DNA of 64,000 nucleotides, taken from assembly GCF_056712565.1 (NCBI RefSeq), contig NZ_CM160072.1. One strand, 5' to 3'. Each line of letters begins with the position of its first letter. Position 1 is the stretch's first letter. Positions 27,001-30,000 of this stretch are shown here, piece after piece. The position numbers were made by a program.

Positions 27001-30000
27001 ATGAAAAACTGACACTCACGTCCAGTCCGCTTATCGGTGTCAATGCTCCTAAAGGCGCTACTCTGACGGCAACGCTAACCTCTGCAAATGGCACTCCAGT
27101 GGAGGGTCAGGTCATCAACTTTAGCGTAACGCTAGAAGGTGCGACGTTAAGTGGCGGAAAAGTGAGAACCAACTCTTCAGGTCAGGCTCCAGTCGTTCTG
27201 ACCAGCAATAAAGTCGGTACATATACGGTGACTGCATCGTTCCATAACGGCGTCACAATACAGACACAGACAACCGTGAAGGTTACTGGCAACCCAAGCA
27301 CCGCACATGTTGCTAGCTTTATCGCTGATCCGTCGACTATCGCCGCCACCAACAGTGATTTAAGTACCTTAAAGGCAACGGTTGAGGATGGCAGTGGTAA
27401 CCTGATCGAAGGTCCCACTGTGTACTTCGCCTTAAAAAGCGGCTCCACCACATTAACGTCATTAACAGCGGTGACCGATCAAAACGGAATCGCGACAACA
27501 AGCGTGAAAGGTGAGATAACGGGGAGCGTCACTGTAAGCGCAGTCACAAGCGCAGGTGGAATGCAAACAGTAGATATATCGCTAGTGGCAGGCCCAGCAG
27601 ACGCCTCGCAGTCCATCCTTAAGAACAACCAGTCATCACTGAAAGGGGACTTTACCGATAGTGCTGAGCTACATCTTGTTCTGCACGATATATCAGGCAA
27701 TCCGATCAAAGTTTCTTAAGGGATAGAATTTGTGCAATCAGGTACAAACGTGCCCTATATGAAAATTAGCGCAATTGATTACAGTCAAAATATCAACGGT
27801 GATTACAAAGCTACTGTTACAGGAGGCGGAGAGGGTATCGCAACGCTGATCCCCGTATTGAATGGTGTTCATCAGGCGGGTCTGAGTACCACGATAGAAT
27901 TCATTAGCGCGGAAACCAGACCAATGACGGGTACAGTGTCAGTGAATAGTGCAAACCTACCGACAGCTTCATTCCCTTCGCAGGGATTTACCGGGGCGTA
28001 TTATCAGTTGAATAATGACAACTTTGCACCAGGAAAAACGGCGGCTGATTATTCGTTTTCAAGCTCGGCCTCCTGGGTAGGCGTTGATGCTACTGGTAAA
28101 GTGACATTCAAAAATGACGGTGATAGCAATACTGTAATAATCACAGCGCCCCCAAGATCCGGTGGTGCTATTTACCAAACAGTTCCTCCTGAATCGCGTT
28201 CGGTGTGACTATGATCATTTTCGGTGAGTATTGCTTTGATCCAAAGGCTGGTTTTCTGTGATGATTGACCAGCCTCAGAGTATTGATGACACCACCGTTC
28301 ATAACAGATCGGCATTACTATGCATAAGTACTGCCTCAAATTCTCGCCAAAACACTTTTTAATGCCTTTGCGAATTCATCCAGACTTATATTGTCAATTT
28401 TTTGCCCAACGACGACTGACTCCGAAACATCGGCCATTGCGGGCCATCGCGTTTTGTAATCAGCATAAATTGCAACAACAGGGGTATTATAGGCACTTGC
28501 CATATGTAATATTGAGGTGTCAGGAGTTATTGCAATATAAGCATCTTTTATGATTGCTGCTGAACGTTTAATCGAGGGTGATAAGGATAAACGGTAGACA
28601 TTATTATAACAATCCACTAATGCCCTGGCTTTATCTTCCCCTTTGGGTCCATAAACGATCACTATTGGAATATCTGTTTCACTTTGAATTTTTGCTATTA
28701 GATTTTCTGCAATCGATAATGAAAATGTACGTTCCTGCGAGCTACCGTCTAAATTGAGCGCAATGTAAGATCCTAACGATCGCATTTCCTCGCGTACCTC
28801 ATCGAGTACATCATCGCTTAATGGCAATTCATATATTGACCTGACTGCCGGAAAACCCGCCTCACGCATCATAAATGCCCATGTCATGGGTACAGGAGTC
28901 CGGAGATTCTGATCCATCCGGGACGCGTTCTTACACAAAGGGGAATAGCACTTCATGGTTAAACCGACGACCTGGAAATTCGTTTTTGCTTTCAACTGAC
29001 TGATAAATATCATCGTTTTCAGGTTCTTTTTACGCATCGCCTCTATACAAAGATCCGGCGTACCGTATTGCAGTGTTATGTTCTTCGCTAAATCTTTTAT
29101 TTCTTTTAATGTTGCGTGATCCTGCATAGTCATTGTGACTAATGTTAATTTAGTCTGTTCAAGTTTGAGCGCATTAAAGACTTCTAAATTAATTGTCGAC
29201 GTAACAATTAATAGATGCTTAATTTTATGCAATTCAAGCGCCCGAATAACAGGAAAGATGGCCATAGCATCGCCAATCTGATCGGGAATATGTATGACAA
29301 CAAAGTCTGTTTTTTCAATATTAAAATTATAAGCTTTATAATCGTAGTAACTAAATGCAATACGTCTCAACAATGATACTAAAAACATAACTAACCTCGC
29401 CTCCCTACTGGTTATAATGCAATGCAGTCTATCAGAATCATCAGGGTGCAATTTTGTGCATATGCGGACTTTTATGTTTCATATCTCGAACCTGTGGGCC
29501 CTCTGCTTAATCCTTAAACAACACCAGCAACTCCTGCGCTTTCATCTTCCATCGAATTTTTCATGTTGCCGCTAATCAGCCATAAAATCATTTGCAGATG
29601 CGCTCTGTCGAGGTAGTCTCATAAGGTTCGTTTATAGATCGACGGCAATGTGAGTTACCTTTTCCATACTAATTATAAAAAGACAGTACAAACAGGATCA
29701 TTATGGACTCCACGCTCATCTCCACTCGTCCCGATGAAGGGACGCTTTCGTTAAGTCGCGCCCGACGAGCTGCGTTAGGCAGTTTCGCTGGTGCCGTCGT
29801 CGACTGGTATGATTTTTTACTCTATGGCATTACCGCCGCACTGGTGTTTAATCGCGAGTTTTTCCCGCAAGTAAGCCCGGCGATGGGAACGCTCGCCGCA
29901 TTTGCCACCTTTGGTGTCGGCTTCCTTTTCCGACCGCTCGGCGGTGTCATTTTCGGTCACTTTGGTGACCGGCTGGGACGTAAGCGCATGTTAATGCTGA

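What the first reader, a model, noticed from the sequence alone, without database searches (positions are those of the whole stretch)
28336..29388. Apparently intact GT9 glycosyltransferase gene beside a decayed adhesin
The yeeL-like heptosyltransferase-family ORF is uninterrupted (~350 aa), whereas I recall the K-12 counterpart being annotated as a split pseudogene. If so, this strain retains a functional copy that might modify the neighbouring adhesin or another surface glycoconjugate, even though the adhesin itself is broken.
Basis: inference. Interest (0 to 1): 0.3.

Follow-up and report, generated by a model that had tools for sequence, protein, structure and literature searches.

The report
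Intact orphan GT9 glycosyltransferase gene yeeL
This is an ordinary, intact copy of the E. coli gene yeeL, an uncharacterised sugar-transferring enzyme that most E. coli strains keep whole (K-12 carries one stop codon in it) and that looks built to decorate lipopolysaccharide rather than the broken adhesin next door.

Summary
Window 28336-29388 (minus strand) is an uninterrupted 350-codon ORF. It matches exactly the RefSeq CDS "glycosyltransferase family 9 protein" of CFT073, Nissle and ATCC 25922. K-12 yeeL (b4497) has the same length and differs by one nonsense codon (Gln235 CAA to TAA).

Being intact is the species norm. The sense allele is in at least 3591 of 5426 complete E. coli genomes and the K-12 stop allele is in 769.

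The protein looks functional. It gives a confident GT-B model closest to GT9 structures (3tov, WaaF, WaaC). The WaaC counterparts are conserved: Asp40 (D13), Arg220 (K192) and Asp290/Thr291/His295 (D261/T262/H266). dN/dS is about 0.1.

A link to the neighbouring adhesin is not supported. The two genes converge. yeeL is intact whether yeeJ is intact, decayed or deleted. Homologues in other genera never sit next to an adhesin. The defining features of the autotransporter heptosyltransferases (TibC/Aah) are absent.

More distant family members lie in LPS-core-type clusters, with a WaaP-like kinase, an HldE-like enzyme, other GT9 and GT4 genes and WaaL-like genes. One is fused to a WaaL-like domain.

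Most likely reading: an orphan, dispensable, LPS-core-type GT9 transferase, probably ADP-heptose-dependent. Its acceptor is untested. Low interest.

The parts
28336..29388 (-). yeeL coding sequence: 350 codons plus TGA stop; GT9 (GT-B fold) glycosyltransferase
29395..29405 (-). Shine-Dalgarno-like GGGAGGCGAGG upstream of the ATG at 29388-29386
   Evidence: Read directly from the sequence. Homologues in other genera start at the same Met.
29269..29271 (-). codon for Asp40, counterpart of the WaaC catalytic base Asp13 (motif IGD at the start of helix 1)
   Evidence: G39-D40 are invariant across the YeeL family and K-12 WaaC/WaaF/WaaQ/WaaU and across 20 family members down to 22% identity. The position follows strand 1 in the model.
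28729..28731 (-). codon for Arg220, counterpart of WaaC Lys192 (nucleotide-sugar phosphate contact)
   Evidence: hhalign pairs R220 with K192. The position is nearly invariant in the family.
28684..28686 (-). codon 235, CAA (Gln) here and TAA (stop) in K-12: the single lesion that makes K-12 yeeL a pseudogene
   Evidence: Codon-by-codon comparison. Allele counts are 3591 genomes (CAA) against 769 (TAA) of 5426.
28504..28521 (-). codons 290-295, D-T-S-I-L-H, the GT9 donor-binding motif (WaaC D261-T262-G263-x-x-H266)
   Evidence: hhalign of the family profile against WaaC. P289, D290, T291 and H295 are invariant in 20 family members.
29389..29702 (.). divergent yeeL-shiA intergenic region, the presumed location of the yeeL promoter (not identified)
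   Evidence: Gene layout. The consensus sigma-70 scan found nothing above the shuffle expectation. The same divergent yeeL/shiA pairing occurs in Pseudocitrobacter without yeeJ.

Best explanation
yeeL encodes a cytoplasmic inverting GT-B glycosyltransferase of CAZy family 9. It belongs to a small, distinct subfamily whose nucleotide-sugar (C-terminal) domain is recognisably GT9 and whose acceptor (N-terminal) domain is divergent. Most likely it works like the LPS core heptosyltransferases. Asp40 would deprotonate an acceptor hydroxyl, which then attacks C1 of a nucleotide-sugar held by Arg220, Asp290, Thr291 and His295. The donor is probably ADP-L-glycero-beta-D-manno-heptose, which E. coli always makes for its core. 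The acceptor would be an anionic, membrane-anchored glycan, most likely the LPS core oligosaccharide, bound by the basic N-terminal domain. In E. coli the gene is an orphan, AT-rich accessory gene outside the waa cluster. It is intact in most strains, including this B2 strain, and lost repeatedly in some lineages: K-12 and B by a nonsense codon, others by IS insertion, and truncated products are on record from Shigella sonnei. It is functionally independent of the adjacent adhesin gene yeeJ. Shown: ORF integrity, fold, residue conservation, purifying selection, population frequency, and gene contexts. Inferred: donor identity, acceptor identity, expression.
Against: No experiment exists; no paper in the searchable library addresses yeeL function. 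The E. coli gene and most enterobacterial and Halomonas homologues are orphans with unrelated neighbours, so the LPS link rests on relatives at about 31-37% identity. The protein scores far below the curated cut-offs of the HepI/II/III equivalog models (37.7 against 185 bits), and its N-terminal domain is not alignable by sequence to WaaC or WaaF, so the acceptor could be something else. Some GT9 enzymes use donors other than ADP-heptose (my own knowledge of CAZy GT9). No promoter was identified, and the low G+C (38.7%) makes H-NS silencing plausible. Recurrent loss shows the gene is dispensable.
Confidence: 0.5

Rival explanations
1. YeeL is a protein O-heptosyltransferase that glycosylates the neighbouring inverse autotransporter YeeJ (or another adhesin), as Aah/TibC glycosylate AIDA-I/TibA.
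Against: The genes are convergent, not co-transcribed. yeeL was intact in sampled genomes where yeeJ is decayed or deleted. A complete yeeJ is present in only 35% of genomes against near-universal yeeL. K-12 YeeJ is reported as functional (title and abstract of PMC5595812) and K-12 yeeL is a pseudogene. Homologues in Pseudocitrobacter, other Escherichia, E. albertii, Erwinia, Rosenbergiella, Hafnia, Pantoea and Halomonadaceae have no adjacent adhesin. The BAHT hallmarks are absent: no N-terminal beta-barrel, no four-Cys iron finger, no beta-hairpin thumb. The family profile does not hit TibC at E<=1. BAHT substrates are beta-helical type Va passengers, whereas YeeJ has Ig-like Big1 repeats. 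G+C is 38.7% for yeeL against about 47-52% for the yeeJ remnant.
Confidence: 0.05
2. The ORF is intact but biologically inert in E. coli: a horizontally acquired, silenced relic that has not yet accumulated a disabling mutation in this lineage.
For: Low G+C. No recognisable promoter. It is an orphan with no partner genes. It has been inactivated repeatedly and independently: the K-12/B nonsense allele in 769 genomes, IS1 and IS3 insertions within the 3-kb query region (the annotated 'GT9 (x2)' under H1 suggests the IS1 splits yeeL), and truncated Shigella sonnei products.
Against: dN/dS is about 0.1 between deeply diverged intact alleles and across Escherichia species. All 14 family-invariant and 11 near-invariant residues are retained. 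The sense allele is in at least 66% of complete genomes, and all six non-K-12 sequences examined are open. There is a strong ribosome-binding site. dN/dS is higher on comparisons involving the K-12 copy, as expected if the intact copies are constrained.
Confidence: 0.2
3. YeeL acts on a different lipid-linked glycan (an undecaprenyl-PP-linked O-antigen, ECA or capsule repeat unit) or uses a donor other than ADP-heptose, rather than on the LPS core.
For: Two distant members lie in clusters with Bac_transf initiating transferase, WecG-type GT, Wzy_C and a Wzx-like flippase, which are typical of Wzx/Wzy-dependent polysaccharide synthesis. The acceptor domain is unlike WaaC/WaaF at sequence level. 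The residue equivalent to WaaC Lys192 is Arg in this family.
Against: Other members sit beside a WaaP/Kdo-family kinase, an HldE-like enzyme and canonical GT9 genes, which are LPS inner-core signatures. Wzy_C also covers the WaaL ligase. The closest structures are the LPS heptosyltransferases.
Confidence: 0.2

Closest known systems
E. coli K-12 yeeL (b4497), annotated pseudogene
   Same: Same locus between yeeJ and shiA, same 1053-nt length, 96.0% nucleotide identity, same start and stop.
   Different: K-12 has TAA at codon 235 and 16 further amino-acid differences, none at family-invariant positions. The window copy is open.
LPS core heptosyltransferases WaaC (HepI) and WaaF (HepII), CAZy GT9 (PDB 2GT1/2H1H/6DFE, 1PSW), and the uncharacterised Veillonella GT9 3TOV
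   Different: Only 12-16% identity. Sequence similarity is confined to the C-terminal domain. Scores are far below the equivalog cut-offs. Lys192 is replaced by Arg. There are an extra N-terminal helix and a DY motif. The gene lies outside the waa cluster in E. coli.
Bacterial autotransporter heptosyltransferases (BAHT: TibC, Aah; PDB 4RAP)
   Same: Same broad GT9/GT-B catalytic core. Sits beside an adhesin gene in E. coli.
Core-modifying GT9 paralogues WaaQ (HepIII) and WaaU (HepIV) of the K-12 waa cluster
   Same: GT9 enzymes that add side-branch heptoses to the core (my own knowledge). G39/D40, D290 and H295 align with them.
   Different: 14-17% identity. They are encoded inside the waa cluster. 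The acceptor position of YeeL is unknown.

Membership tests
CAZy GT9 / Pfam PF01075 Glyco_transf_9 | Sequence match to the family model above the curated threshold | tested here: met
   PF01075 E 5.7e-07, 29.5 bits against cut-off 22, residues 253-342 only. All family members tested also hit PF01075.
CAZy GT9 / Pfam PF01075 Glyco_transf_9 | GT-B fold (two Rossmann-like domains), closest to solved GT9 structures | tested here: met
   [not shown]
CAZy GT9 / Pfam PF01075 Glyco_transf_9 | Catalytic base Asp at the start of helix 1 (WaaC Asp13; TibC Asp110) | tested here: met
   G39-D40 are invariant in alignments with WaaC, WaaF, WaaQ and WaaU and in 20 family members. This rests on a MAFFT alignment plus the predicted secondary structure, not on a superposition I could inspect.
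CAZy GT9 / Pfam PF01075 Glyco_transf_9 | Donor-binding residues (WaaC Lys192, Asp261, Thr262, His266) | tested here: met
   hhalign pairs R220/K192, D290/D261, T291/T262 and H295/H266. Lys to Arg is a conservative, family-wide change.
CAZy GT9 / Pfam PF01075 Glyco_transf_9 | Transfers heptose from ADP-heptose (the activity typical of the family) | not testable with these tools
   Indirect only: one family member is adjacent to an HldE-like ADP-heptose synthesis gene.
LPS heptosyltransferase I/II/III equivalogs (TIGR02193, TIGR02195, TIGR02201; WaaC/WaaF/WaaQ) | Score at or above the NCBIfam curated cut-off | tested here: not met
   37.7 against 185.3, 19.1 against 134.6 and 16.1 against 170.2 bits; matches are confined to the C-terminal third.
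LPS heptosyltransferase I/II/III equivalogs (TIGR02193, TIGR02195, TIGR02201; WaaC/WaaF/WaaQ) | Encoded within an LPS core (waa-type) gene cluster | tested here: not met
   In E. coli the gene lies between yeeJ and shiA, far from waa. The feature is met only for distant family members.
Bacterial autotransporter heptosyltransferases (BAHT: TibC/Aah) | Iron-finger motif with four conserved cysteines (TibC Cys339, 342, 358, 370) | tested here: not met
   The cysteines are at 114, 147, 152 and 260, with no CxxC motif and none in the C-terminal region. No Cys is invariant in the wider family. The feature definition is from PMC4358343.
Bacterial autotransporter heptosyltransferases (BAHT: TibC/Aah) | N-terminal beta-barrel domain and beta-hairpin thumb | tested here: not met
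   The model starts with a helix (residues 2-13) followed directly by the Rossmann strand 29-33. There is no barrel or hairpin insertion.
Bacterial autotransporter heptosyltransferases (BAHT: TibC/Aah) | Genetic coupling to a substrate autotransporter with a beta-helical passenger | tested here: not met
   The gene is convergent with yeeJ. Adjacency is absent in all other genera. The YeeJ passenger consists of Big1 Ig-like repeats.
Bacterial autotransporter heptosyltransferases (BAHT: TibC/Aah) | Closest structural or sequence relative is TibC | tested here: not met
   [not shown]
yeeL orthologue group of E. coli | Same chromosomal position and high nucleotide identity to K-12 b4497 | tested here: met
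   96.0% identity over 1053 nt, flanked by yeeJ remnants and shiA.

The most novel reading that the evidence does not exclude
YeeL defines a previously uncharacterised GT9 subfamily with its own acceptor domain. In E. coli it would be a strain-variable accessory enzyme acting on a substrate that is not the canonical core pathway. The most novel version the data do not exclude is heptosylation of a protein such as the Ig-like inverse autotransporter YeeJ, which would be a new class of adhesin glycosylation. The tamer version is an unrecognised, lineage-variable LPS core substitution that is absent from K-12 and B laboratory strains.
Probability: 0.05. Interest if true: 0.6.

Novelty: new member of a known kind. 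Interest (0 to 1): 0.17.

Why it matters
As found, it matters little. Public annotation already shows an intact GT9 gene in most E. coli and a yeeL pseudogene in K-12.

What remains of interest is that a near-universal, selectively constrained E. coli glycosyltransferase has no known substrate, and that the two main laboratory lineages (K-12 and B) both carry the nonsense allele. Any surface-glycan modification it makes would therefore have been invisible in most classical LPS work. If it does alter the LPS core in wild strains such as CFT073 or Nissle 1917, it could affect phage receptors, serum resistance or core typing.

It is also a caution against inferring function from adjacency at an asn-tRNA integration hot spot.

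Tried and rejected
1. MFS-transporter linkage. yeeL is divergent from shiA, and the Erwinia and Rosenbergiella homologues lie directly downstream of MFS genes. However, the three transporters (ShiA, YdeE-like, NepI-like) are unrelated, with BLASTP E>1, so the adjacency is coincidental.

2. PDB profile search. The top hits were designed alphaRep repeat proteins matching only the short 'IGDxxAxxPxIxxL' stretch in many weak pieces. I rejected these as spurious. The real hits were WaaC (E 1e-3) and WaaF.

3. Literature. A search for 'yeeL' alone returns mostly an author name. With yeeJ or glycosyltransferase added, it returns mostly metabolic-engineering papers plus unrelated hits, none of which I opened. 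No functional study was found. The YeeJ paper does not mention yeeL or glycosylation.

4. Promoter and terminator scan. Nothing exceeded the shuffle expectation.

5. tblastn against plasmids at E<=10. Among the 25 of 33 records listed, it found only mis-filed chromosomes and generic GT9 genes, with no feature labelled as an Aah-type autotransporter heptosyltransferase.

7. A complete census of ORF integrity across all 5426 genomes was not possible with the tools. I used exact 33-mer allele counts and inspected ten further sequences: four genomes sampled from the sense-allele hits, K-12, and five loci from the genome scan.

Full report
**What is there.**
The window is chromosomal DNA of a phylogroup B2-type E. 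coli. The 3-kb region around the finding is 100% identical to CFT073, Nissle 1917, ATCC 25922 and many others.

In CFT073 the annotated order is ybtE, fyuA (the right end of the yersiniabactin island), a 250-aa 'inverse autotransporter beta domain' CDS, and a frameshifted 'Ig-like domain' pseudogene. Then comes a 1053-nt 'glycosyltransferase family 9 protein' CDS on the opposite strand, followed by shiA, amn and yeeN. Converted to window coordinates, the GT9 CDS is 28336-29388 on the minus strand, exactly the coordinates of the finding.

It translates without interruption to 350 residues. A GGGAGG/GAGG ribosome-binding site lies just upstream of the ATG. Homologues from other genera start at the same methionine.

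**Comparison with K-12.**
MG1655 annotates yeeL (b4497) as a pseudogene at the same position and with the same length.
- Its translation has one internal stop.
- Codon by codon, the two genes differ at 42 of 1053 nucleotides (96.0% identity).
- The only disabling change is CAA to TAA at codon 235. There is no frameshift.

Neither refutation condition was met: K-12 is not equally intact, and the catalytic residues are not lost.

**Is the intact state unusual? No.**
- The region is present in 5357 of 5426 complete E. coli genomes.
- An exact 33-mer carrying the K-12 TAA occurs in 769 genomes. These include K-12 and BL21 derivatives but also isolates from humans, poultry, sheep and water.
- The 33-mer with CAA occurs in 3591 genomes. 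The remainder presumably carry other nearby SNPs.
- I opened four of the ten genomes listed at even steps down the ranking of sense-allele hits. All four have an intact 350-aa CDS, and all six non-K-12 sequences extracted are open.
- Other lineages have lost the gene in other ways. IS1 and IS3 insertions lie within the 3-kb query region in two genomes, and truncated products are on record from Shigella sonnei.

**Is it a plausible enzyme? Yes.**
- Pfam PF01075 is matched above threshold, but only in the C-terminal third.
- An AlphaFold2 model built on 18 homologues is confident (pLDDT 87.4) and has two Rossmann-like domains.
- Profile alignment to WaaC pairs Arg220 with Lys192, and Asp290/Thr291/His295 with Asp261/Thr262/His266.
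- In a joint alignment with K-12 WaaC, WaaF, WaaQ and WaaU, the invariant columns include Gly39-Asp40 (the WaaC Asp13 position), Asp290 and His295.
- The same residues are invariant in 20 family members down to 22% identity.
- dN/dS is 0.10-0.12 between divergent intact E. coli alleles and about 0.10 against a 72%-identical Escherichia allele. Synonymous sites are saturated between genera while proteins stay 53-66% identical. Comparisons involving the K-12 pseudogene are higher, at 0.15-0.22.

**Does it serve the adhesin? The evidence says no.**
- yeeL and yeeJ converge, so they are not co-transcribed.
- yeeL is intact in genomes where yeeJ is decayed next to the island (SK1144, EC20, this window), where it is deleted (Res13, IS1/RHS), and where it is intact (ET300).
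- A published survey found a complete yeeJ in only 35% of 126 genomes (PMC6714894).
- K-12 YeeJ is reported to promote biofilm formation and bind peptidoglycan (title and abstract of PMC5595812). I infer this was in a K-12 host whose yeeL is broken. The paper mentions neither yeeL nor glycosylation.
- No homologue in another genus has an adjacent adhesin:
  - Pseudocitrobacter keeps the divergent yeeL/shiA pair next to mtfA with no yeeJ.
  - The 72% Escherichia allele lies between hchA and mtfA.
  - The E. albertii copy is between tonB and yciA.
  - The remaining homologues, in Erwinia, Rosenbergiella, Hafnia, Pantoea and Halomonas, also have none.
- G+C also differs: 38.7% for yeeL against about 47-52% for the yeeJ remnant.

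**What then?**
An exhaustive profile search found a small family: 36 representatives at E<1e-30. Beyond it lies a long tail of generic GT9 proteins that match only the C-terminal domain. A scan of one genome per species found full-length members only in a few Escherichia species, Hafnia paralvei, Pseudocitrobacter, Erwinia, Pantoea coffeiphila, Rosenbergiella and Halomonadaceae.

Most of these genes are orphans, but several more distant full-length members (31-37% identity) are not:
- In Litchfieldella anticariensis the order is GT4, a Kdo/WaaP-family LPS kinase, the YeeL-like gene, GT4, GT92.
- In Halomonas citrativorans the order is an HldE-like PfkB + cytidylyltransferase, a canonical GT9, the YeeL-like gene, GT4, and another GT9.
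- Two metagenomic members lie among Wzy_C (WaaL-like), Bac_transf, WecG-type, GT2, GT4, GT9, kinase-like and flippase genes.
- One protein fuses a Wzy_C domain to a YeeL-like GT9 domain.
- The Hafnia homologue abuts a gtrA/gtrB/GtrII operon.
- The N-terminal domain is basic (pI 9.4) and the C-terminal domain acidic (4.9), as in WaaC and WaaF.

Together this points to a lipid-anchored, anionic glycan acceptor, most simply the LPS core, with ADP-heptose as the likely donor. That step is inference. The E. coli gene has no informative neighbours, scores far below the HepI-III equivalog cut-offs, and has an acceptor domain unlike any characterised enzyme.

**Rivals.**
- Intact but silent relic. This fits the low G+C, the lack of a recognisable promoter and the recurrent loss. 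It fits poorly with dN/dS of about 0.1.
- Action on an undecaprenyl-PP-linked repeat unit, or use of another donor. The Bac_transf/WecG/flippase contexts allow this.
- Adhesin heptosylation. This is the least likely.

**Verdict.**
The adhesin idea is not supported. The 'other surface glycoconjugate' idea is the better reading. In terms of novelty it is an uncharacterised member of a known enzyme family. Interest is low. The one point worth noting is that K-12 and B laboratory strains both lack this enzyme, so any activity it has would have escaped classical LPS work.

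Noticed in passing
window 34084-38396: Relative to K-12, the nac-cbl(-asnU-yeeO) segment is inverted between Asn-tRNA genes. The tRNA-Asn copies are at 34088-34163 (-), 36497-36572 (-) and 38321-38396 (+). The blastn block 34423-37000 matches K-12 in reverse orientation. Strain SK1144, which also carries the island, keeps the K-12 order.
   Followed up: partly
window 24600-25600 and 25368-26117: A very AT-rich junction (G+C 29-35%) separates fyuA from the yeeJ remnant. The 250-aa 'inverse autotransporter beta domain-containing protein', annotated as an intact CDS (WP_000039786.1), is really a fragment: only window 25721-26043 matches K-12 yeeJ (nt 219-550), and it is joined directly to yeeJ nt about 4244 onward. 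Large internal deletions (about nt 551-4243 and 4719-5000) and loss of the 3' end leave about 2.4 of 7.0 kb.
   Followed up: partly
L024 (Escherichia whittamii) 7216-11014: Downstream of the yeeL homologue, where E. coli has yeeJ, lie an AAA_15 + OLD-type TOPRIM ATPase and a UvrD-like helicase. This pair resembles the Gabija anti-phage system, which suggests the locus is a general integration hot spot.
   Followed up: no
L026 (Hafnia paralvei) 11548-14884: The 68%-identical yeeL homologue sits about 1 kb upstream of a gtrA / gtrB (GT2) / GtrII-type glucosyltransferase operon with a Peptidase_S24-like gene. This is an O-antigen glucosylation cassette of the kind carried by prophages.
   Followed up: no
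L022 (contig JARKOR010000252.1, labelled Candidatus Nanosynbacter MAG): A contig in a Saccharibacteria metagenome-assembled genome carries a yeeL gene 96.6% identical in DNA (97% in protein) to this E. coli gene. This is almost certainly E. coli contamination of the bin.
   Followed up: no
one search hit list (for example NZ_CP081489.1 BL21(DE3)): The K-12 nonsense allele (TAA235) is shared by E. coli B/BL21 and by wild isolates from several hosts. It is therefore an old natural polymorphism, not a laboratory artefact.
   Followed up: partly
[not shown]
   Followed up: no
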